A stretch of DNA of 64,000 bases from an uncultured Ulvibacter sp. (GTDB lineage Bacteria; Bacteroidota; Bacteroidia; Flavobacteriales; Flavobacteriaceae). Of this stretch, positions 1-55,488 are shown piece after piece. The stretch lies in the NCBI GenBank assembly GCA_963974915.1, contig CAXBES010000014.1, positions 49,633 through 113,632 on the forward strand, given 5' to 3'. Both the position numbers and the translations under genes were made by a program. Below the pieces are notes generated by a model. The model had not been told where the DNA came from. It did not search any database and saw only the letters and a program-made list of their open reading frames with translations. Numbering within the stretch: the stretch's first letter is position 1; each line of letters begins with the position of its first letter.

Positions 1-1259
1 TTCAATCTGCCCAAAAATTCACTAGTGACCATCCTAATGCCAGAGGTATCTTACTAGACGTATTTAATGATCCCCAGCGAAGAGAAGCCGTTTCAAATAG
101 TGATCTGGTAATTTCTATGCTTCCTGCAAGATTTCATATAGAGGTTGCTAAAGATTGTTTAGAGTTTGGTAAACATTTAGTTACAGCTTCTTATGTTAGT
201 GACCAGATGCAAGTTCTACATCCCAAAGTAAAATCGAAGGGGTTGGTATTTATGAACGAAATAGGTCTGGACCCGGGCATAGATCATATGAGTGCAATGC
301 AAGTGATAGATCGAATTAGAGAAAAGGGTGGTAAAATGCTCCTTTTCGAATCTTTTACCGGCGGGTTAATTGCACCCGAAAGTGACAATAACCTTTGGAA
401 CTACAAATTTACCTGGAACCCAAGAAACGTTGTACTTGCCGGTCAGGGAGGTGCTGCCGAATTTATTCAGGAAGGTAAATACAAATATATACCGTACCAC
501 AGACTCTTTAGAAGAACTGAGTTTATTGATGTGGAAGGCTACGGGAAATTTGAAGTCTATGCGAATAGAAATTCGTTAAAATATCAATCGGTGTATGGAC
601 TCAACGACATCTTAACATTGTATCGAGGAACCATTAGGCGAGTTGGTTTCAGCAAAGCGTGGAACATGTTCGTTCAGTTAGGAATGACAGATGATAGTTA
701 CAGCATGCCAGATACGGAAAATCTTTCATACCGGGATTTTGTAAATTCATTTCTACCATATTCTCCTACAGATTCGGTGGAGCTGAAATTACGACATAAC
801 CTACGCATAGATCAAGACGATCTGATGTGGGAAAAATTGCTGGATCTTGATATTTTTAATAGCGAAAAAACCATAGGAATAAAAGACGCAACCCCGGCTC
901 AAGCCCTTCAGAAGATACTAATGGACAAATGGACCTTAGATCAAGATGATAAAGATATGATCGTGATGTATCACAAATTTGGGTACGAACTAAACGGAAA
1001 AAAATATCAAATAGATAGTAATATGGTTTCCATAGGTGACGACCAAACCTATACTTCTATGGCCAAAACCGTAGGCTTGCCTGTCGCTATCGCTGCCATA
1101 AAAATTCTAAATGAAGAGATCGTGACACCGGGAGTTCAACTCCCAATTACGAAAGAAGTTTATGAGCCCATTTTAAAAGAGTTGGAAAAATACGGAATCA
1201 CTTTTAAAGAGAACGAAACCACCTATCTAGGGTACAATCCGGATAATGTAATAGGTTAA
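1..1259 (+). CDS. saccharopine dehydrogenase family oxidoreductase (5' end outside window)
   Basis: The frame stays open upstream of the first ATG at 117 back to base 3. Sequence is typical of the saccharopine dehydrogenase family (…SDLVISMLPARFHIEVAKDCLEFGKHLVTASYVS…). Confidence 0.7.
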   Translation, partial: QSAQKFTSDHPNARGILLDVFNDPQRREAVSNSDLVISMLPARFHIEVAKDCLEFGKHLVTASYVSDQMQVLHPKVKSKGLVFMNEIGLDPGIDHMSAMQVIDRIREKGGKMLLFESFTGGLIAPESDNNLWNYKFTWNPRNVVLAGQGGAAEFIQEGKYKYIPYHRLFRRTEFIDVEGYGKFEVYANRNSLKYQSVYGLNDILTLYRGTIRRVGFSKAWNMFVQLGMTDDSYSMPDTENLSYRDFVNSFLPYSPTDSVELKLRHNLRIDQDDLMWEKLLDLDIFNSEKTIGIKDATPAQALQKILMDKWTLDQDDKDMIVMYHKFGYELNGKKYQIDSNMVSIGDDQTYTSMAKTVGLPVAIAAIKILNEEIVTPGVQLPITKEVYEPILKELEKYGITFKENETTYLGYNPDNVIG

Positions 1260-2658: not shown

Positions 2659-5517
2659 TTATCCGACTATATTTACGATCTTCCCGGGTACAATTATTAT
2701 CTTTTTAGGTGTTCTACCCTCCAAATAATGCTGGGTTTTCTCATTTGACATAACGGCAGTTTCTATGTCATCTTTACTCATATCTAATGGTAATTCGAGC
2801 GTAAAACGCATTTTTCCATTAAACGATATTGGATATTCTTTACTACTTTCTATAAGATGTTTTTCTTCAAACTTCGGAAAGGCCGCCGTTGCAATACTTC
2901 CCGAATGCCCTAACTTGTTATAAATTTCTTCGGCAATGTGAGGTGCGTAAGGAGAAATTAAAATGATCAAGGGTTCTAAGATCTCTCGGGCGGTACATTT
3001 TTGTGCCGAAAGTTCATTGACAGCGATCATAAATGTTGAAACAGAAGTATTAAAACTGAAATTCTCTATATCTTCCTCAACCTTTTTTATGGTCTTATGA
3101 AGCGTCTTAAGATTTTCCTTTGAAGCAGCCTCATCACTCACATTAAAAGTCTCATCTACCCCTGTATGGTACAACTTCCACAACTTTTTCAGAAAACTAT
3201 GCACCCCAGTAATTCCGGCGGTACTCCATGGTTTTGCCTGCTCCAACGGACCTAAGAACATCTCGTACATACGCAAGGTATCGGCTCCGTATTGCTTACA
3301 AATATCGTCCGGATTGACGACGTTGTATTTCGATTTCGACATTTTTTCAACTTCTCGTGTAACCTTAAAAGTTCCGTCCTCCTCGGTAATAAAAGTTGCG
3401 TCCTTAAAATCTTCCCGCCACTTCTTAAACCCTTCTATATCCAGTTCATTAGACGCATTTACCAAAGAAACATCTACATGAATAAGTCTTCCTGTGTAAT
3501 TGCCTGAAACTTTTTTGGAAACGATCAAATTATCTTCATCCGAAAGAAAAACAAACGCACTCTCTCCCAGTATCATTCCCTGATTGATCAACTTTTTAAA
3601 GGGTTCGTCTACTTTTAAAAATCCGCGATCGTACAAAAATTTTACCCAAAACCTACTGTATAAGAGGTGTCCGGTAGCATGTTCGCTTCCTCCTAAATAC
3701 AGATCTACATTTTCCCAATAATCCATGGCTTCTTCCGAAGCTAAAGCTTTATTATTATTAGGATCCATATACCTGAACATATAGCAGCTACTTCCTGCCC
3801 AGCCGGGCATAGTGTTCAACTCTAACGGGAATACAGTCTCCTGATCAATTAATTTATTGCTAACCACTTCGTTTTTTACAGTATCCCATGCCCAAACCTC
3901 GGCACGACCTAAAGGTGGTTCTCCGGTTTCGGTAGGTAAATATTTTTCAACTTCCGGAAGACGTAAGGGTAAATGTTCCAGAGCGATCATTTGCGGCATT
4001 CCTTTTTTGTAATATACGGGAAACGGCTCACCCCAATAGCGCTGACGAGAAAATACAGCGTCTCTAAGGCGATAGTTTATCTTTCCTTTCCCGGCGTTTT
4101 TACTTTCTAAGGCTTCAATTGCCTTTTGCGTTGCTTCTTTATAGTTAAGACCATTCAGGAAATCGCTATTTGCAATGATCGTTTTTTCTTTATCAGCAAA
4201 AGCTTCTTCCGAAATATCCACCCCTTCAAAAACATTGGGTATCGCTATTCCGAAGTGCTTTGCAAAATCATAATCACGTTGATCCCCGCAAGGAACACTC
4301 ATTACAGCACCGGTTCCGTAGCCAGCCAAAACATAATCGCCAATCCAAATAGGAATATCTTCGCCGGTAAAGGGATGTACAGCATACGAACCTGTAAACA
4401 CACCACTAATGGTTTTTACATCGGCCATACGCTCTCTTTCACTTCTTTTTGCAGTAGCCTCGATATACTTTCCAACATCAATTCGTTGCTCGATAGTTGT
4501 AAGTCGGTCAACAAGATCGTGTTCCGGGGCCAGCGTCATAAAACTCACTCCGAAAATAGTATCGGGACGGGTTGTAAATACTTCAATTACCTCATCCCCA
4601 TTCTTTACCTTAAAGTGAACACTTGCTCCTTTAGAGCGACCAATCCAGTTAGTTTGTGAGTCAATTAAAGGTTGCGGCCAGTCTATCGTTTCTAAACCAT
4701 CCAGCAAACGTTGAGCGTAAGATGTAATTCGCATGCTCCATTGTGTCATTTTTTTGCGTACTACAGGAAAGCCCCCGCGTTCTGAAACACCATTGACAAT
4801 TTCGTCGTTTGCGAGTACGGTTTTTAATTGCGGACACCAATTTACTTCAGTTTCGGCTAAATAAGTAAGTCGGTACTTTAGTAAAACTTTTTCTTTCTTT
4901 TCTTCGGAAAAAGAATTCCATTGTTCTGCGGTAAAAATAGATGTGTCTATTTCACAAGACGCATTAATCCCTTCATTCCCCTCTTCAGAAAAAACCTTTA
5001 CCAATTCAGAAATAGGCAGTGCCTTTTCGTGTGTTTTGCAATACCAGGACTCGAACAGTTGGATAAAGATCCATTGTGTCCACTTATAATAGGCAGGATC
5101 GGAAGTACGAAGCTCTCTATTCCAATCGAATGAGAAACCTATTTTATCCAGCTGTTTTCTATATCCTTCAATTTCATTCCCCAGATTATCGATTCCACCC
5201 TCAATATTCACTTTGGTGGTTTGCGCAGGATGCTGACCCGTTTGTATCGCATATTGTTCTGCCGGCAAACCGAAGCTGTCATAACCCATGGGATGAAGAA
5301 CGTTAAAACCTTTGTGGCGTTTATAGCGTGCATAAACGTCGCTCGCAATATAACCTAACGGATGTCCAACGTGAAGACCGGCACCTGAAGGGTATGGAAA
5401 CATATCCAACACATAGTACTTGGGCTTTTCACTGGAATTTTCGGCTTTGAACGTATTATTTTTGGACCAATACTCTTGCCATTTGGCTTCAATTTCGTTA
5501 AAATGGTAATTGCTCAT
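2659..5517 (-). CDS. leuS: leucine--tRNA ligase
   Basis: 952 aa with an HVGH-type class I motif (PYPSGAGLHVGHPLGY), a KMSKS motif and a LeuS-typical N-terminus. Confidence 0.97.
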   Translation of the reverse strand: MSNYHFNEIEAKWQEYWSKNNTFKAENSSEKPKYYVLDMFPYPSGAGLHVGHPLGYIASDVYARYKRHKGFNVLHPMGYDSFGLPAEQYAIQTGQHPAQTTKVNIEGGIDNLGNEIEGYRKQLDKIGFSFDWNRELRTSDPAYYKWTQWIFIQLFESWYCKTHEKALPISELVKVFSEEGNEGINASCEIDTSIFTAEQWNSFSEEKKEKVLLKYRLTYLAETEVNWCPQLKTVLANDEIVNGVSERGGFPVVRKKMTQWSMRITSYAQRLLDGLETIDWPQPLIDSQTNWIGRSKGASVHFKVKNGDEVIEVFTTRPDTIFGVSFMTLAPEHDLVDRLTTIEQRIDVGKYIEATAKRSERERMADVKTISGVFTGSYAVHPFTGEDIPIWIGDYVLAGYGTGAVMSVPCGDQRDYDFAKHFGIAIPNVFEGVDISEEAFADKEKTIIANSDFLNGLNYKEATQKAIEALESKNAGKGKINYRLRDAVFSRQRYWGEPFPVYYKKGMPQMIALEHLPLRLPEVEKYLPTETGEPPLGRAEVWAWDTVKNEVVSNKLIDQETVFPLELNTMPGWAGSSCYMFRYMDPNNNKALASEEAMDYWENVDLYLGGSEHATGHLLYSRFWVKFLYDRGFLKVDEPFKKLINQGMILGESAFVFLSDEDNLIVSKKVSGNYTGRLIHVDVSLVNASNELDIEGFKKWREDFKDATFITEEDGTFKVTREVEKMSKSKYNVVNPDDICKQYGADTLRMYEMFLGPLEQAKPWSTAGITGVHSFLKKLWKLYHTGVDETFNVSDEAASKENLKTLHKTIKKVEEDIENFSFNTSVSTFMIAVNELSAQKCTAREILEPLIILISPYAPHIAEEIYNKLGHSGSIATAAFPKFEEKHLIESSKEYPISFNGKMRFTLELPLDMSKDDIETAVMSNEKTQHYLEGRTPKKIIIVPGKIVNIVG

Positions 5518-14074: not shown

Positions 14075-15481
14075 TCATAAAAAATACAGACCGGTTAGAT
14101 AAACTACTACTCCAATTAACATCACCAGAATCGTATAGGGTAAGATCTCTTTCGCTTTTAATTTGGTGATTCCCAACAAGGGCAGAGCCCAAAAGGGTTG
14201 CAACATATTGGTAACCTGATCTCCGTATGCCAAAGCCATAATTGCTTTCGGTAACGGAACACCCAATTTTAGGGCAGATTCTATTACTATCGGACCTTGA
14301 ATTGCCCATTGACCACCTCCACTTGGTACAAAGATATTAACCAACCCGGCACTAAAAAAAGTGAAAATCGGGAGCGTTTGTGTAGTAGCAATAGAGACGA
14401 AAAAATCTGAAACCTGCACTACAAGACCACTTTCGCGCATAATCCCCATAATTCCGAAGTACAACGGAAACTGAATTAGAATTCCACTGGCTCCTTTAAT
14501 AGCTTCCTCTACCGCATTCAGAAAACTGGAAAAGCTACCGTGCAAAATGAGCGCTAAACCTAGCATAAAGAAATTGAGCAAATTTGGAGTGATAGCCAAA
14601 CTTTCTAAATTCTGGAAATATTGATAAAAGAAGGCGATGAGAATTAAAACTCCAAATCCAATTCCAAACACCTTCGAATTGTCAAGGCGTTCGGCACCTT
14701 TCAACTTGTTCGCTTCAAAAGTTTCACTGTGATAAATAGGTAAATTTGTTGGGGTCGCTTTAGCATTTCTTCCTAAAAAGTATAAAAACAGGGGAATGAT
14801 CAGTAATAAAATTCCGAAGTGCAACAGATTAAAACCGCTAAATATTGTATCGCTAAAGGGAATTAAATTTGGAAGAGTACTTGACATATTTACATCCCCA
14901 ATACCGGTCATTAAACTTGCCAAATGTCCGTTTTCGGCAACCTTTAAGGGCGCCGAACCACTAATTCCGCCATGCCACACCATAAAGCCAACATATCCTG
15001 AAGCACCTACCAGAGGATAGTTAATATCGAAATTACGTATTTGCGAAGCTTCCGCTACTTTTCTGGCGATAATAGCTCCAAAAATAAGTCCTAAGCCCCA
15101 ATTAAAAAAAGACACGATCATTGTAGTGCTACTTACTAACATTACTGCATTTGAAGTATTACTCACCAAGTTTGTGAGCTTTACAATTAGGGAGTTCATT
15201 GGTTTGCTTAGCACTAAAATGTGTCCCAGTACTAATATTAGCATCATTTGATACGCAAATACCAATAACGCATTGTTCCAAATTCCGCTTTCCCAAAATG
15301 ATAAAATTGCCAGAAAATGGTTTTCGTTCTTTGGCGCATCGGTTAAAAAAAGTGCCAAAAGCATCGTGACAACCGTTAAAATTATAGCGATCGCAAAAGG
15401 TGAAGGTAAATATCGCTTAAAGATGGTTTCGATGGTTGAAGTGATGTTCATAGGGTAAAAATAAGAAAAGCTTAATGACAC
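14075..15481 (-). CDS. atoE: short-chain fatty acid transporter AtoE family
   Basis: Strong similarity to AtoE over the full length (…VPSGGGQWAIQGP…ALAYGDQVTNMLQPFWALP…). Confidence 0.85.
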   Translation of the reverse strand: MSLSFSYFYPMNITSTIETIFKRYLPSPFAIAIILTVVTMLLALFLTDAPKNENHFLAILSFWESGIWNNALLVFAYQMMLILVLGHILVLSKPMNSLIVKLTNLVSNTSNAVMLVSSTTMIVSFFNWGLGLIFGAIIARKVAEASQIRNFDINYPLVGASGYVGFMVWHGGISGSAPLKVAENGHLASLMTGIGDVNMSSTLPNLIPFSDTIFSGFNLLHFGILLLIIPLFLYFLGRNAKATPTNLPIYHSETFEANKLKGAERLDNSKVFGIGFGVLILIAFFYQYFQNLESLAITPNLLNFFMLGLALILHGSFSSFLNAVEEAIKGASGILIQFPLYFGIMGIMRESGLVVQVSDFFVSIATTQTLPIFTFFSAGLVNIFVPSGGGQWAIQGPIVIESALKLGVPLPKAIMALAYGDQVTNMLQPFWALPLLGITKLKAKEILPYTILVMLIGVVVYLTGLYFL

Positions 15482-15550
15482 ATATCAAAAATGTGAAATT
15501 AAGCTTTAATTTATTGAGTGTTCGAATTACCTCAACAACACTTTTATCTT

Positions 15551-15885
15551 AGTTCGATTACGCAGATCAAAGATTTGCTATCTCGCAAAGACTTCCTGGG
15601 ACCCCGACGCTAGAGGTCGGGATTAGTTCGATTACGCAAATCAAAGATTTGCTATCCTGTGATGACTTCCTAAGACCCCGACGCTAAAGGTCGGGATTAG
15701 TTCGATTACGCAAATCAAAGATTTGCCATCTCACAAAGACTTCCTGAGACCCCGACGCTAAAGGTCGGGATTAGTTCGATTACGCAAATCAAAGATTTGC
15801 TATCCCGCAAAAACTTCCTGAGACCCCGACGCTAAAGGCCGGGATTAGTTCGATTACGCAAATCAAAGATTTGCTATCTCACTAA
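15551..15885. repeat. 74-bp tandem repeat array, about 4.5 copies, two conserved hairpins per unit
   Basis: Copies start at 15551, 15625, 15699, 15773 and 15847 (the last is partial). Each carries GCAAATC-aaa-GATTTGC and CCCGAC-gctaaag-GTCGGG hairpins separated by a 20-nt variable segment. Confidence 0.9.
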
Positions 15886-16260
15886 CTAAAAAGGGAGGTC
15901 GTCGTGATCTTCTTCGTTTAGATCATTTACAGGTTCAAAAGCATCTTCAGGAGGCATTGGAGGCATATTATTAGATACAGATTGATCAATATTTTCAATT
16001 CTCCAACCGGTTATAGAATTAAAATACTTCGTTTCACCCTGTGGATTAACCCATTCTCTACCGCGTAGATTGATACTAACTTTTACATTTTGTCCAACTT
16101 GATACGTATTTAACAGGTCGGTTTTATCCTGTACAAATTCTACTAAAATATGTTGTGGATATTGCTCTTCGGTAGTAATTACCATCTCTCTCTTTCTAAA
16201 ACCATTGTTTCCATAGGTCTTAGTTTCATCGATCATTTTTATTTTTCCTTGAATTTCCAT
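15886..16260 (-). CDS. DUF3127-like protein; SSB-like OB fold with SSB C-terminal tail
   Basis: 124 aa. The core resembles an SSB OB fold (…LRGREWVNPQGETKYFNSITGWRIE…). Acidic C-terminus ending DHDDLPF, compare ssb at 39484 ending DDDDLPF. Confidence 0.6.
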   Translation of the reverse strand: MEIQGKIKMIDETKTYGNNGFRKREMVITTEEQYPQHILVEFVQDKTDLLNTYQVGQNVKVSINLRGREWVNPQGETKYFNSITGWRIENIDQSVSNNMPPMPPEDAFEPVNDLNEEDHDDLPF

Positions 16261-49853: not shown

Positions 49854-51374
<1,521 letters not shown>

Positions 51375-51587
51375 TTAGTACTATAGGAGTGCTTTAAGCA
51401 CCCTGATTTTCAACGGTGCAAAGATAGTTTTTTCTATTCTAATTTTGCAATGGAATTCTCTAAAAATTTACAGCTATTTTTATGGGGGCTTCTCTTTCGC
51501 TATACAGCCTTCTAAACCGAACTTCGATAAAGATGCCTCGCTTCAGAGAACCGCGCTTTCAGCGTTACACGCCTGCCAGCTCTAAGC

Positions 51588-51663
51588 CACAAGGCGAAGG
51601 CGGGGTAACCTGCTTCAATCACTGCCACAAGGCGAAGGCGGGGTAACCTGCTTCAATCACTGC
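51588..51663. repeat. perfect 2 x 38-bp tandem duplication (CCACAAGGCGAAGGCGGGGTAACCTGCTTCAATCACTG)
   Basis: Copy 1 at 51588-51625, copy 2 at 51626-51663, identical. Confidence 0.9.
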
Positions 51664-51797
51664 CCCAAGACCCCTCTGTCGCTAGTAGCGACATCTCCCC
51701 TAAGAGGAAGAAAAAACATTTTCATCCAAGACATCTCATATCATAAAATCATATGATCACGTCTGCCTTTTACCGAGAAATGCCACAGACGTTGAGA

Positions 51798-52692: not shown

Positions 52693-53418
52693 TTAATCGT
52701 TTTTTAGTATATGTTCTCGCAAGGTTTCGTAATAAGGTAGTGCCTCTTGTAACAAGGGTGAAAGTCTTTCAGACAAAGGCTCAGAGCTGCTTTTCTGTAG
52801 TGCAAATCCTTCAGAATTATGAACATTCTTATACCAATGTGGTGCCCAAACTCCGTCCTGAGGTATTCCTCCTTTGTTCCAGCTAAGCATTTCTTCAGAA
52901 TAAGACAAGTCTAATAAACCGCAAAGCTTCTTTAGATAACTTGACGGTGCTTTTAACAGCTCATCGCTATCAATAACTATTGGTGTTCTATTGCTTTCCT
53001 TCAGAAATAAAAACAATTCCGAAGCCTTTTTAACACCAATATCATCGAGTGTTGGGTTTTCTATCACTTTTGAAAATGAAGCGATCAACTTTTTAGGGTG
53101 ACGTATTAAAATTACATTCTCCCATTGGGTTATATATTTGGGGTCATTAGACAAATAGTGATGTGCCATTCCCTTTACGAACACATTTTTACCTGTCGCC
53201 AAACTATTTATTTGTGCAACGATATTATCTTCTTGCTGCTCCATCGTATTTAGGATCGCATCATGAGCCGGGTGGTTTATTATTACATTCGCATTCTTTA
53301 GATAAAAGGCATAAAAAGGTTCGTCTAAAACTTCAAAATCGGCGCGTTGTGCAAAGGAATACATTATTGCCGTCGAAAGATTTCTGGGCCCCGAAATGAG
53401 ATTAACGACTTTGTTCAT
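52693..53418 (-). CDS. sulfotransferase-like P-loop protein
   Basis: [10 protein letters not shown]-loop-like 5'-PSB motif. The start at MNKVV (53418) is preferred. Confidence 0.4.
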
Positions 53419-53469: not shown

Positions 53470-53562
53470 ACGGGAGTCGGGAGACGGGAGTTGGGAGTTG
53501 GGAGTTGGAAGTTGGGAGTTGGGAGTTGGGAGTTGGGAGTTGGGAGTTGGGAGTTGGGAGTT
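53470..53562. repeat. heptanucleotide microsatellite (GGGAGTT)n, about 13 units (minus strand AACTCCC)
   Basis: Direct reading: GACGGGAGTC GGGAGAC then GGGAGTT x ~10 with one GGAAGTT variant. Confidence 0.95.
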
Positions 53563-53640: not shown

Positions 53641-55488
53641 CTACTCTACAGTAACCGATTTTGCCAGATTACGTGGCTGATCTACGTTTCTATTTAGCAT
53701 AACCGCAATGTGATACGACAATAACTGCAATGGAATAGTAGTCACCAATGGAGTAAGCGTTTCCGGAGTATTAGGCACTTCCATAATATAGTCTGCCATT
53801 TCTCTAACAACGGTATCCCCTTTAGTCACTACCGCGATGATAACCCCTTTTCTGGATTTAATTTCCTGAATATTACTTACCACCTTATCATAATGATTAC
53901 TATTTATAGCAACCACTACCACCGGCATGTTTTCGTCGATCAAAGCAATTGGTCCGTGCTTCATTTCGGCAGCGGGATATCCTTCGGCGTGAATGTATGA
54001 GATCTCCTTTAGCTTTAGTGCTCCTTCAAGGGCAACCGGGAAATTGTAACCTCTTCCAAGATAAAGGAAATTAGATGCATCTTTAAATACCTCGGCAATT
54101 TCTTTAATCTTATCGTTACTCTTTAACGCCTCTTCCACATGCCCCGGAATCATTTCCAGTTCTCTAAGGTGCATAACATAATCGCTTTGCGAAATGGTAC
54201 CTTTTACCTTTGCAAGTTTAAGCGCTATCATTGTAAGTACAGTGATCTGTGTAGTAAATGCTTTAGTTGAGGCAACCCCGATCTCTGGACCTGCATGAGT
54301 ATATGTCCCACTGTGTGTCTCCCGAGAAATGGTAGATCCTACCACATTGCAAATTCCGTAAACGAAGGCTCCTTTAGATTTTGCCAGCTTTATCGCAGCG
54401 AGGGTATCTGCAGTTTCACCACTTTGTGAAATAGCGATTATTACGTCCTTTTCGGTAATAATTGGGTTTCTATATCTGAATTCGGATGCGTATTCTACCT
54501 CAACCGGGATTCTTGCCCAATCTTCAAAGATATATTCGGCCACTAAACCGGCGTGCCATGAAGTACCGCAAGCAACTATGATTATACGATCGGCATTGGT
54601 AAATTTCGATATGTAATCTTCTAAACCACCTAATTTAATAATCCCTTTTTCTGCTAATAGGCGTCCTCGATAGGTATCTTTAATAACCGAAGGTTGCTCG
54701 TAGATCTCCTTTAACATAAAGTGGTCGTAACCCCCTTTTTCAATTTGTTCAATATTCAGTTTTAATTCTTGAATATTTGGAAGAACAAGACTGTCACTTT
54801 TTATTTTACGAACCTTTACGTCTCTCCCTCTTCTAATAATAGCCATTTCTTCGTCTTCCAGATATATGGCATTATTTGTGAATTCGATAAATGGGGAAGC
54901 ATCACTGGCTACGAAAAATTCGTCATCTCCAATTCCGATGGCTAACGGACTCCCCAATTTAGCCACTACTATTTCGTCTGGCTTTCTTCTGTCGAATAAA
55001 GCGATAGCATAAGCGCCAACCACCTGATTTAATGCTATCTGAACAGCTTTTCCAAGCTTCACATTTTCCTGCTTTTTGATCTCTTCTATCAAATTCACAA
55101 GGACTTCTGTATCTGTATCAGAAGTAAAGGTATATCCTCTGTTTAAAAGTTCCTTTTTGATAGAAGCGTAATTTTCTATGATCCCATTGTGAATGATCAC
55201 AAGATCTCCGCTATTAGAATAATGTGGATGAGAATTTACATCGTTAGGAACTCCGTGTGTCGCCCAACGTGTATGCCCAATTCCTAAGGTTCCCTTGGTC
55301 TCGATCTCTTTGGCTACTCGTTTCTCTAGGTCAGCTACTTTTCCCTTTGTTTTACTTAATTGAATATCTGTTCCATCAAAAAGTGCAATTCCCGCACTAT
55401 CATATCCTCTGTATTCTAAACGCTTTAAACCGTTGATAATTATAGGAAAGGCTTCTCTATTACCAATGTAACCAACTATTCCACACAT
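53641..55488 (-). CDS. glmS: glutamine--fructose-6-phosphate aminotransferase
   Basis: MCGIVGY N-terminal Ntn Cys and two SIS domains; 615 aa. Confidence 0.97.
   Translation of the reverse strand: MCGIVGYIGNREAFPIIINGLKRLEYRGYDSAGIALFDGTDIQLSKTKGKVADLEKRVAKEIETKGTLGIGHTRWATHGVPNDVNSHPHYSNSGDLVIIHNGIIENYASIKKELLNRGYTFTSDTDTEVLVNLIEEIKKQENVKLGKAVQIALNQVVGAYAIALFDRRKPDEIVVAKLGSPLAIGIGDDEFFVASDASPFIEFTNNAIYLEDEEMAIIRRGRDVKVRKIKSDSLVLPNIQELKLNIEQIEKGGYDHFMLKEIYEQPSVIKDTYRGRLLAEKGIIKLGGLEDYISKFTNADRIIIVACGTSWHAGLVAEYIFEDWARIPVEVEYASEFRYRNPIITEKDVIIAISQSGETADTLAAIKLAKSKGAFVYGICNVVGSTISRETHSGTYTHAGPEIGVASTKAFTTQITVLTMIALKLAKVKGTISQSDYVMHLRELEMIPGHVEEALKSNDKIKEIAEVFKDASNFLYLGRGYNFPVALEGALKLKEISYIHAEGYPAAEMKHGPIALIDENMPVVVVAINSNHYDKVVSNIQEIKSRKGVIIAVVTKGDTVVREMADYIMEVPNTPETLTPLVTTIPLQLLSYHIAVMLNRNVDQPRNLAKSVTVE

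What the first reader, a model, noticed from the sequence alone, without database searches (positions are those of the whole stretch)
15551..15885. 74-bp tandem repeat array with two conserved stem-loops per unit, upstream of atoE and downstream of the DUF3127 gene
Four full units and one partial unit, period exactly 74 bp. Each unit has a GCAAATC-AAA-GATTTGC hairpin and a CCCGAC-GCTAAAG-GTCGGG hairpin that are perfectly conserved. The 20-nt segment between them drifts: TCTCGCAAAGACTTCCTGGG / CCTGTGATGACTTCCTAAG / TCTCACAAAGACTTCCTGAG / CCCGCAAAAACTTCCTGAG. Drift in the linker while both stems are conserved suggests selection on structure, for example an RNA element array, a protein-binding array or a structured 5' leader of the atoE-like transporter. 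It is not CRISPR-like because the 'spacers' are near-identical, and it has no U-run so these are not simple terminators.
Basis: seen in the sequence. Interest (0 to 1): 0.6.

Follow-up and report, generated by a model that had tools for sequence, protein, structure and literature searches.

The report
Copy-variable tandem two-hairpin repeat cluster
The 74-bp repeat between two flavobacterial genes is a strain-variable pile-up of a small two-hairpin element that also sits beside RNase P RNA and tmRNA genes in other bacteria. It therefore looks like a REP-like repeat, not a regulator of the neighbouring transporter, although its near-identical core in two phyla is unexplained.

Summary
The array is real: 4.5 copies of a 74-bp unit at 15549-15878, between a DUF3127 gene and an SCFA_trans/atoE gene, both on the minus strand. 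The hairpins are not perfectly conserved.

About 90 related Flavobacteriaceae keep the same gene pair. Their spacers are mostly 48-150 nt and hold only a terminator, so the array is a lineage-specific addition. A terminator-like hairpin still lies between the array and the atoE start.

Same-species strains (97.7-99% identical) carry 1.5, 2.5 or 4.5 copies.

Each unit has two parts:
- a 43-nt irregular hairpin "module" (P1 / GA·GA loop / P1b / bulge / P2);
- a GC-rich second hairpin.

The module occurs in unrelated places: just 3' of RNase P RNA genes (period 79), abutting the 5' end of tmRNA genes on the opposite strand, and in a Synergistaceae contig. Its core is nearly identical everywhere, and its stems covary.

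Best reading: a cluster of REP/BIME-like extragenic palindromic elements, expanded and contracted by recombination or slippage. An atoE leader, a CRISPR array and a type III antitoxin are rejected. A new structured RNA is not excluded. How the element spreads is unknown.

The parts
15548..15886 (-). Whole cluster: five modules and four second hairpins, with the 74-bp unit repeated 4.5 times. It starts at the last base of the DUF3127 stop codon.
   Evidence: TRF 15549-15878, period 74, 4.5 copies. Model R1 hits. Sequence.
15844..15886 (-). Module 1, the only copy with an intact outer stem. Layout: P1 TTAGT (15885-15881) / ACTAA (15849-15845); GA·GA loop; P1b GAT/ATC; P2 GCAAATC (15874-15868) / GATTTGC (15864-15858); loop TTT.
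   Evidence: R1 score 71.4 bits. RNAfold structure. Covariation counts.
15770..15812 (-). Module 2, an internal copy. The P1 5' strand is degenerate (TTTGC).
   Evidence: R1 score 53.5 bits. Unit listing.
15696..15738 (-). Module 3, an internal copy. The P1 5' strand is TTTGT and the loop base changes from A to G (GAGATGGC).
   Evidence: R1 score 59.4 bits. Unit listing.
15622..15664 (-). Module 4, an internal copy. The P1 5' strand is lost (ATCAC), so the model aligns only the core, 15628-15656.
   Evidence: R1 score 42.8 bits, model positions 9-37. Unit listing.
15548..15590 (-). Module 5, the terminal half unit. P2 carries an A·C mismatch on this strand, which is a G·T pair on the plus strand.
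   Evidence: R1 score 49.3 bits..
15824..15844 (-). Second hairpin, copy 1: CCCGGC-CTTTAGC-GTCGGG, with a G·U pair on the minus strand.
   Evidence: Pattern match with 1 mismatch. Fold.
15750..15770 (-). Second hairpin, copy 2: CCCGAC-CTTTAGC-GTCGGG.
   Evidence: Exact match.
15676..15696 (-). Second hairpin, copy 3.
   Evidence: Exact match.
15602..15622 (-). Second hairpin, copy 4, with loop variant CTCTAGC.
   Evidence: Pattern match with 1 mismatch.
15457..15507 (-). Native spacer feature, not part of the repeat: a terminator-like hairpin (arms 15507-15491 and 15483-15467) plus the T-rich tail TCTTATTTTT. It is homologous to the terminator that directly precedes atoE in relatives. TATTTTTA at 15463-15456 resembles the Bacteroidetes -7 box.
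   Evidence: Inverted repeat I1. Comparison with 20 relatives. The promoter reading rests on my own knowledge of the TAnnTTTG consensus and was not tested.
15886..16260 (-). Upstream gene, DUF3127 family, 124 aa. Its TAG stop codon abuts P1 of module 1.
   Evidence: PF11325, E = 2.4e-31.
14075..15451 (-). Downstream gene, a short-chain fatty acid transporter family protein (atoE-like), 458 aa from ATG 15451.
   Evidence: PF02667, E = 8e-107. The start matches the 458-aa gene calls in L006 and L010.

Best explanation
The array is a cluster of a small extragenic palindromic element, amplified in tandem. It behaves as a fast copy-number polymorphism (VNTR).

The 74-bp unit has two parts:
- a 43-nt irregular hairpin 'module': P1 of 5 bp, a 2x2 GA/GA loop, P1b of 3 bp, a 1x3 loop, P2 of 7 bp and a 3-nt loop;
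- a GC-rich second hairpin with loop CTTTAGC, plus a short tail.

The element belongs to a small family found at gene boundaries in unrelated contexts and in two phyla. I therefore read it as a REP/BIME-like repeat, not as a locus-specific regulator.

Shown:
- the structure and its covariation;
- the unrelated contexts;
- the absence of the element from orthologous spacers;
- the copy-number differences between strains.

Inferred:
- The element spreads as a folded single strand handled by a trans-acting enzyme (HUH/Y1-transposase-like or similar).
- Once two modules lie in direct orientation, unequal recombination or replication slippage between them expands and contracts the array. This explains the 'n + 0.5' layout ending in a module.
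- At this locus the array would be transcribed as the 3' UTR of the DUF3127 mRNA, upstream of the native terminator. At most it would act as a set of stabilising or pausing hairpins.
For: 1. Lineage-specific addition. 75 of 80 Flavobacteriaceae species keep DUF3127 next to atoE, and most have a 48-150-nt spacer consisting of a terminator, a T-run and the ATG. Among the closest relatives, only the window species and lineages L105 and L109 (HisK 88-90% identical), plus the more distant L012, carry a module at the stop codon.

2. Copy-number polymorphism. There are 4.5 copies in the window and in L002, which is 100% identical over 12.4 kb. There are 1.5 copies in L001, L004, L005 and L006 (98-99% identical) and 2.5 copies in L010 (97.7%). 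The 1.5- and 2.5-copy alleles carry junction variants absent from the 4.5-copy allele, so they are not assembly collapses.

3. Same module elsewhere.
- It lies directly 3' of RNase P RNA in L095, L097, L099 and L119, tandem with period 79.
- It abuts the tmRNA 5' end on the opposite strand in L093 and L118.
- It occurs in a Synergistaceae contig, L098, and in L091.

4. Structure. 15 pairs are 98% paired. Four pairs show compensatory double changes, and 0 of 500 shuffles reach the observed covariation score. RNAalifold predicts the same fold independently.

5. Tandem amplification recurs at each type of locus, with different periods: 74, 79 and about 111 nt.

6. [quoted passage not shown] It also describes Bacteroidetes Y1 transposases with atypical hairpins that have 3-nt loops (PMC6006769).

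7. Precedent. E. coli K-12 has 3.5 copies of a 113-bp hairpin-bearing repeat at the 3' end of rnpB.
Against: - No second locus was found in the 64-kb window, nor in about 790 kb from 90 other loci. High copy number, a hallmark of REPs, is therefore not shown.
- No transposase, integrase or Y1/RAYT gene is present among the 50 ORFs of at least 150 aa in the window.
- There is no GTAG or CGTC tag.
- REPs are normally species-specific. Here a core of about 31 nt is nearly identical in Flavobacteriaceae and Synergistaceae.
- The whole 79-nt unit is 100% identical between L095 and L099, whose flanking spacer is only 81% identical. Variant V2 keeps pairing through three compensatory changes. Both facts point to constraint, which fits a functional RNA or DNA site as well as it fits a selfish element.
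- Two of the five kinds of locus abut stable-RNA genes within 0-7 nt. That is more than chance would suggest.
Confidence: 0.5

Rival explanations
1. The module, with or without the second hairpin, is a previously undescribed functional structured RNA. It could be a protein-binding or processing element in 3' trailers, or a small RNA. On this reading the arrays are multi-copy versions of it.
For: - The three helices covary.
- The internal-loop nucleotides are nearly invariant across phyla.
- The 79-nt unit is 100% conserved between L095 and L099 despite 81-92% identity in the flanks.
- The module lies directly 3' of a co-oriented gene at the DUF3127, rnpB and L098 loci.
- The element persists at rnpB and ssrA in several related species.
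Against: - No Rfam family matches at gathering or permissive thresholds.
- Orientation relative to transcription is inconsistent. The module is antisense and upstream of tmRNA in L093 and L118, lies between convergent genes in L099, and lies between divergent genes in L091.
- G·U versus A·C substitutions do not favour one strand: three favour the plus strand and two the minus strand.
- The distribution is sporadic. The module is absent from most close relatives.
- Internal array copies lose the outer stem.
Confidence: 0.22
2. The palindromes are double-stranded DNA binding sites for a dimeric protein (operator, partition or nucleoid sites), and the array is a multi-site binding platform.
For: - The module as a whole is an imperfect 20-bp palindrome, and P2 is a perfect 7-3-7 palindrome.
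- No strand bias is seen in wobble substitutions.
- The position is independent of the direction of transcription.
Against: - The outer and middle stems change by compensatory pairs (UA/AU/CG and GC/AU). This preserves pairing but not sequence. That is expected for a folded strand, not for sequence-specific duplex recognition.
- The two arms are asymmetric (GAGATA versus TCGATTAC).
- No regulator gene is linked to the element at any locus.
Confidence: 0.07
3. The array is a structured 5' leader, riboswitch or attenuator controlling the atoE-like transporter.
For: - The array is upstream of atoE on the same strand.
- The array folds better than shuffled sequence, with z = -3.4.
Against: - It is absent from about 90 orthologous atoE leaders.
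- A terminator-like hairpin and T-run conserved in relatives lie between the array and the ATG.
- The same element occurs with no atoE nearby.
- The sister lineage L109 keeps a decayed module even though atoE is deleted.
- The plus strand folds equally well, with z = -3.7.
Confidence: 0.03
4. The array is a purely local, neutral minisatellite produced by chance duplication of native spacer sequence, with no relation to any element family.
For: - The copy number varies between strains.
- Contigs L007-L009 and L105-L108 end inside the array, as is typical of tandem repeats in short-read assemblies.
Against: - The module is found at unrelated loci and in another phylum with a near-identical core.
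- Variable sites are strongly clustered, not spread evenly.
- Arrays recur at other loci.
Confidence: 0.05
5. The array is a degenerate CRISPR-like mini-array, or a type III antitoxin (ToxI-like) repeat array.
For: - The layout is repeat-'spacer'-repeat and ends in a repeat.
- The module resembles a hairpin-type CRISPR repeat in size.
- Tandem repeats followed by a terminator and an ORF recall toxIN. This comparison rests on my own knowledge.
Against: - The 'spacers' are copies of one sequence.
- There are no cas genes and no ToxN/AbiQ-like gene in the window.
- The downstream ORF is a conserved transporter that is present without repeats in relatives.
- The metagenome scan found no long array with this repeat.
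Confidence: 0.02

Closest known systems
REP / BIME clusters (repetitive extragenic palindromes, mobilised by RAYT/TnpA-REP Y1 transposases)
   Same: - It is a short imperfect palindrome that folds into a hairpin.
- It is extragenic and hugs the 3' ends of genes.
- It occurs singly or in clusters in which the palindrome is reiterated in tandem with flanking DNA (PMC3733652).
- Stem variants keep their pairing.
- Bacteroidetes Y1-transposase subclass 2.6 has atypical hairpins with 3-nt loops (PMC6006769).
   Different: - There is no GTAG or CGTC tag.
- All copies are in direct orientation, whereas head-to-tail dimers are rare in REPs.
- Only one locus was found per 64 kb.
- No RAYT gene was seen.
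- The core is nearly identical across two phyla, whereas REPs are usually species-specific.
113-bp tandem repeats at the 3' end of E. coli rnpB (Reed and Altman 1983, cited from my own knowledge; re-derived here)
   Same: It has an n.5 copy number (3.5 copies). Each unit carries a hairpin. The repeats start at the 3' end of the RNase P RNA gene. The 79-bp arrays in L095 and L099 occupy the same position.
   Different: The sequence is unrelated. The E. coli unit includes the last bases of rnpB itself and a canonical U-tailed terminator. It is not known from other loci.
MIRU-type VNTRs of mycobacteria and BOX elements of pneumococci (from my own knowledge)
   Same: These are intergenic repeats of 40-100 bp between co-directional genes. 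Their copy number varies between strains. BOX elements have a modular structure with a variable number of internal boxB units.
   Different: Those families have tens to hundreds of loci per genome and are restricted to one genus. MIRUs carry small ORFs that overlap the flanking genes. No sequence similarity was found.
Ends of IS200/IS605-family elements and their miniature derivatives (PATEs)
   Same: Both have a subterminal hairpin of 20-25 nt plus short flanking bases that pair with each other (guide/cleavage-site logic, PMC6006769). Insertion leaves no direct target duplication. Here too the flanks of the module are inverted and not direct repeats.
   Different: No transposase or TnpB remnant is adjacent. 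The pairing here is an ordinary 5-bp Watson-Crick stem separated from the hairpin by loops. The mechanism is untested.

Membership tests
REP/BIME | Short (about 20-65 nt) imperfect palindrome able to form a hairpin | tested here: met
   The 43-nt module folds at -12 kcal/mol (z = -3.5). Its 15 pairs are 98% conserved as pairs.
REP/BIME | Extragenic, typically just downstream of coding or RNA genes | tested here: met
   The module starts at the DUF3127 stop codon. It lies 0-5 nt after RNase P RNA. It is intergenic in L091, L093 and L098.
REP/BIME | Many dispersed copies within one genome | tested here: inconclusive
   Only one locus was found in the 64-kb window, and none in 790 kb of other loci apart from those already known.
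REP/BIME | Conserved GTAG (or CGTC) tetranucleotide at one end | tested here: not met
   The sequence 5' of the hairpin foot is GAGATA or GAGACA. There is no GTAG or CGTC at either end.
REP/BIME | Cognate Y1 transposase (RAYT) gene flanked by copies | not testable with these tools
   No such gene is present among the 50 window ORFs. The rest of the genome is not available.
VNTR / minisatellite | Head-to-tail repeats whose copy number differs between strains | tested here: met
   Strains that are 97.7-100% identical carry 1.5, 2.5 or 4.5 copies, each with allele-specific junction variants.
MITE | Terminal inverted repeats plus a direct target-site duplication | tested here: not met
   The flanking pentamers are inverted complements (TTAGT/ACTAA, TAAGT/ACTTA, TTCAAT/ATTGAA), not direct repeats.
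CRISPR array | Identical repeats separated by unique spacers, with cas genes nearby | tested here: not met
   The inter-module segments are copies of one sequence. No cas domain was found in the window ORFs.
Type III toxin-antitoxin (ToxI-like repeats) | Repeat array followed by a terminator and a ToxN/AbiQ-type toxin gene | tested here: not met
   The downstream gene is an SCFA_trans transporter. It is conserved without repeats in relatives.
Riboswitch or 5' leader of atoE | Conserved upstream of orthologous genes, with no terminator between it and the start | tested here: not met
   It is absent from about 90 orthologous loci. A terminator-like hairpin intervenes. No Rfam family matches.
Integron attC site | R''/R' core sites RYYYAAC and GTTRRRY closing the folded strand, with intI or cassettes nearby | tested here: not met
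   The P1 sequences TTAGT/ACTAA and their variants lack the AAC/GTT cores. No integrase is present in the window. The consensus is quoted from my own knowledge.

The most novel reading that the evidence does not exclude
The module plus second hairpin (about 75 nt) is a previously undescribed family with four properties:
- a core of about 31 nt that is nearly identical in Bacteroidota and Synergistota;
- an outer stem that differs at each locus while always staying paired;
- a preference for the exact boundaries of genes, notably the 3' end of RNase P RNA and the 5' end of tmRNA;
- a built-in tendency to amplify in tandem.

It would then be either a new kind of tiny mobile hairpin element, with an unknown (possibly HUH-type or rolling-circle) mobilising enzyme and base-pairing-guided target choice, or a new horizontally spread structured RNA.
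Probability: 0.3. Interest if true: 0.65.

Novelty: new variant of a known kind. Interest (0 to 1): 0.42.

Why it matters
For this locus the result is mostly deflationary. The array is not a regulator of the transporter. It is a fast-evolving repeat that breaks short-read assemblies, and it could serve as a strain marker for an uncultured marine flavobacterium.

The wider point is the element itself. A 43-nt hairpin keeps a near-identical core in two phyla, has covarying stems, and sits flush against RNase P RNA and tmRNA genes. It matches no Rfam family and no described REP class. If it is mobile, it would be one of the smallest such units and would point to an unidentified mobilising enzyme. 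If it is an RNA, it is a new motif.

Tried and rejected
- **Genome-contig scan with GATTTGCGTAATCGAACTAA: 0 hits.** In hindsight the 20-mer was too strict. Other lineages end in ...CTTA or ...ATTA.
- **Viral contig scans with two patterns: 0 hits.** Plasmid and phage BLAST gave only chance-level hits. The Vibrio plasmid hit lies at the record start and matches the covariance model only weakly (23.7 bits); I read it as chance.
- **L092, L094 and L096 from the metagenome scan are a chance match.** By my own translation of the sequence, the match lies in the reverse-strand coding sequence of a PP-loop ATPase-like gene (SGGVDS motif).
- **Full-text search for the hairpin sequence: no papers.** Searches for rnpB tandem repeats, flavobacterial MITEs and DUF3127 found nothing useful.
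- **tRNA-like unit (74 nt): ARAGORN found nothing.**
- **A third stem between GUCUC after hairpin 2 and GAGAU of the next module.** The observed 5 of 7 paired junctions is the modal outcome of permutation, so this stem was rejected.
- **Promoter reading of the reverse strand (AAGATTTG versus the Bacteroidetes -7 box TAnnTTTG) upstream of tmRNA.** The match is only partial and there is no -33 element at the right spacing. This is my own inspection and was left as a remark.
- **Strand of function from G·U versus A·C changes.** The count is 3 to 2, which is uninformative.
- **Protein-space trick.** I searched a profile of the antisense peptide FDYANQRFAISL against 5.8e9 proteins. It found only 4 proteins, all at locus types already known.

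Full report
**1. The observation**

Tandem Repeats Finder reports one array at 15549-15878 with period 74, 4.5 copies, 91% matches and no indels. The repeat finder gives start-to-start spacings of exactly 74. Neither occurs elsewhere in the 64-kb window, and chance expectation is 0.43 and 0.00 matches.

They are not 'perfectly conserved'. One hairpin-1 copy reads GCAGATC. One hairpin-2 copy has a loop change and another has a stem change.

The flanking genes are as stated and both lie on the minus strand:
- DUF3127 (15886-16260);
- an SCFA_trans/atoE-type transporter (14075-15451).

In gene orientation the array therefore follows the DUF3127 stop codon and precedes atoE.

**2. What the spacer normally looks like**

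A protein-guided scan of one genome per species returned 80 Flavobacteriaceae loci, with at best 80% AtoE identity. In 75 of them DUF3127 lies upstream of atoE. The spacer is usually 48-150 nt and consists of a GC hairpin, a T-run, a TATTTTTA-like box and the ATG.

The window keeps the homologous terminator-like hairpin (15467-15507) and T-run directly before the atoE ATG. The array is thus an addition of about 330 nt between the stop codon and the native terminator. It is not a leader adjoining atoE.

No Rfam family matches at gathering or permissive thresholds. ARAGORN finds no tRNA. All 50 ORFs of at least 150 aa in the window are housekeeping genes, with no cas, transposase or integrase genes.

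**3. Copy number varies between strains**

The identical DUF3127 protein is encoded on 21 public contigs from marine metagenomes.

| Record(s) | Identity to window | Copies |
|---|---|---|
| L002 | 100% over 12.4 kb | 4.5 |
| L001, L004, L005, L006 | 98-99% | 1.5 |
| L010 | 97.7% | 2.5 |

L003 (98.7-99.0% identical) has a scaffold gap inside the array, so its copy number is unresolved. L007-L009 end inside the array.

The short alleles carry junction variants (GCTAGATAGC and TTTAC) that do not occur in the 4.5-copy allele. They are therefore real alleles and not collapsed assemblies.

**4.

A pattern scan of metagenome contigs found the hairpin-1 region in unrelated settings, with about 10 conserved bases on either side. 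Comparing these copies shows an outer stem that changes from locus to locus but always pairs:

| Locus | Outer stem |
|---|---|
| window | TTAGT / ACTAA |
| L091, L098, L119 | TAAGT / ACTTA |
| L093, L118 | TTCAAT / ATTGAA |
| L095, L097, L099 | TTAAT / ATTAA |

RNAfold gives the following layout: P1 (4-5 bp), a 2x2 GA/GA loop, P1b (GAU/AUC), a 1x3 loop, P2 (GCAAAUC/GAUUUGC) and a 3-nt loop.

Variant V2, found in a sister lineage (L105-L108 and L111), reads TGAGACAGTAAATCTTCGATTTACGAGGTCGAAC. It keeps the fold through compensatory changes in P1b (U-A to C-G) and P2 (C-G to U-A).

On seven sequences, 15 pairs are 98% paired and four pairs have changes on both sides. None of 500 shuffles reaches the observed covariation score. 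RNAalifold predicts the same helices independently, and it adds the base of a second, GC-rich hairpin. The loop motif (C)TTTAGC or CGTAGC of that second hairpin recurs in the window, L106, L093 and L118 on different stems.

In the window, only the first module has an intact P1. Internal copies carry TTTGC, TTTGT or ATCAC in its place. Ten of the 13 variable columns fall in this junction (P about 8e-5).

**5. Where the element occurs**

- Directly after the DUF3127 stop codon. This holds in the window species and in its two closest sister lineages: L105 (variant V2, a second module about 111 nt on, and all five contigs break there) and L109 (decayed variant V3, with atoE deleted). It also holds in the more distant L012 (V4). 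It is absent from all other relatives examined.
- 0-5 nt after the 3' end of RNase P RNA in L095, L097, L099 and L119. There it is tandem with period 79 and has 2-3 modules.
- On the opposite strand, abutting the 5' end of tmRNA in L093 and L118. A spurious ORF, P0244, suggests 2-3 tandem diverged modules at such a site.
- In L098, whose ribosomal protein L1 is 80-82% identical to Synergistaceae proteins, and in L091 beside a TRAP transporter operon. L091 and L098 share only about 58 nt. L119 shares their P1 variant and a downstream CCCCATCAGA motif.

Covariance model R1 finds no further copy in the window or in 790 kb of other loci. A profile of the module's antisense peptide found only four proteins among 5.8 billion, all at these same locus types.

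**6. Signs of constraint**

L095 and L099 are orthologous loci. Identity between them is as follows:

| Region | Identity |
|---|---|
| genes | 85-92% |
| post-array spacer | 81% |
| rnpB | 96% |
| aligned module-cargo-module (about 115 nt) | no differences |

The core (GAGATAGCAAATCTTTGATTTGCGTAATCGA) is identical or one base different in the Flavobacteriaceae, the other Bacteroidota contigs and the Synergistaceae contig. Yet the window's sister lineages carry diverged but still paired variants. Substitutions that would distinguish an RNA strand (G·U versus A·C) split three to two, which is uninformative.

**7. Interpretation**

*Shown:*
- The array is a lineage-specific, strain-variable tandem amplification of a two-hairpin element.
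- The element belongs to a family that occurs at gene boundaries regardless of the neighbouring gene or its orientation.

*Inferred:*
- The family behaves like REP/BIME elements, which are extragenic palindromes that cluster by tandem reiteration with flanking DNA (PMC3733652). Bacteroidetes are known to have Y1 transposases with atypical short-loop hairpins (PMC6006769).
- Arrays ending in a module ('n + 0.5') are what unequal exchange or slippage between two direct modules would give.
- Recurrence of arrays at three locus types, with different periods, suggests that amplification is a property of the element.
- E. coli K-12 offers a precedent. It has 3.5 copies of a 113-bp hairpin unit at the 3' end of rnpB.
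- At this locus the array would be 3'-UTR cargo of DUF3127, upstream of the native terminator. Any effect on atoE is likely to be indirect.

*What does not fit a plain REP:*
- There is no GTAG or CGTC tag.
- All copies are in direct orientation.
- Apparent copy density is low.
- No transposase is in view.
- The core is identical across phyla.
- The element lies flush against rnpB and ssrA.

For these reasons I give the REP-like reading 0.5 and keep a new structured RNA at about 0.2.

**8. Rejected readings**

- *atoE leader or riboswitch:* the element is absent from orthologues, a terminator intervenes, and it occurs without atoE.
- *CRISPR-like array:* the 'spacers' are one sequence and there are no cas genes.
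- *ToxI-like antitoxin:* the downstream gene is a conserved transporter.
- *tRNA-like unit:* no ARAGORN hit.
- *Purely local minisatellite:* contradicted by the other loci.
- *MITE:* the flanks are inverted repeats, not direct ones.

**9. Limits**

My first genome-collection pattern was too strict, and the capped scans were then exhausted. Copy number per genome, which is the key discriminator, is therefore untested. No expression data were available. All relatives are metagenome assemblies, and some of them break in the array.

Noticed in passing
window 53472-53562: The heptamer AACTCCC (minus-strand reading) is repeated 13 times. It lies in the spacer between the glmS-like gene (53641-55488) and a sulfotransferase-domain ORF whose likely ATG is at 53418. 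This is a classic candidate for slipped-strand length variation upstream of a gene.
   Followed up: no
window 51360-51797: A 438-nt GC-rich spacer lies upstream of the ATP synthase beta gene. It contains a 38-nt tandem repeat of 2.2 copies (51586-51669) and the palindrome GTCGCTACTAGCGAC. It looks like a different small repeat element.
   Followed up: no
L109 2876-3160; L114 and L117 2376-2670: In several close relatives the atoE/SCFA_trans gene between DUF3127 and the Leu/Phe-tRNA protein transferase gene is missing. L109 keeps a decayed module followed directly by a remnant of the atoE C-terminus, so the deletion starts next to the element.
   Followed up: partly
L112 2876-3074 (also L113): A different insert of about 130 nt (GTCACATTGAGCGTGTCGAAAT...GTCTACGCTCAGCACAGG) sits inside the loop of the DUF3127 terminator hairpin. 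This spacer therefore seems to be a recurrent landing site for small repeats.
   Followed up: no
L011-L049, just upstream of position 4001; window 15452-15507: Nearly all Flavobacteriaceae relatives have the DUF3127 terminator, a T-run and a TATTTTTA-like box only 3-5 nt before the atoE start codon. This implies that atoE has either a very short leader or none, or is expressed by read-through. The promoter reading rests on my own knowledge.
   Followed up: no
L093 9512-10756: A tyrosine-recombinase-like ORF (my own reading of the sequence; no domain search was run) starts about 240 nt after the 3' end of the tmRNA gene. That is the usual position of an integrated element. The hairpin module is on the other (5') side of the same tmRNA gene.
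   Followed up: no
L091 about 230-330 (reverse strand): A truncated IS3-type orfA remnant (MTKTTRRVFDAEFKRKAVEL...) lies about 100 nt from the module and diverges from it. The identification is my own reading of the sequence.
   Followed up: no
L120 847-1239 (E. coli K-12, 3' of rnpB): There are 3.5 copies of a 113-bp repeat, each with a terminator hairpin, overlapping the last bases of rnpB. The RefSeq record has no annotated feature there.
   Followed up: partly
window 15508-15547 (minus strand): The segment GTGTTGTTGAGGTAATTCGAACAC lies just after the last module. It is itself palindromic, and it contains GGTAATTCGAAC, which resembles the 3' loop of the module (GTAATCGAAC, or GAGGTCGAAC in V2). 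It may be a relic of an older copy.
   Followed up: no
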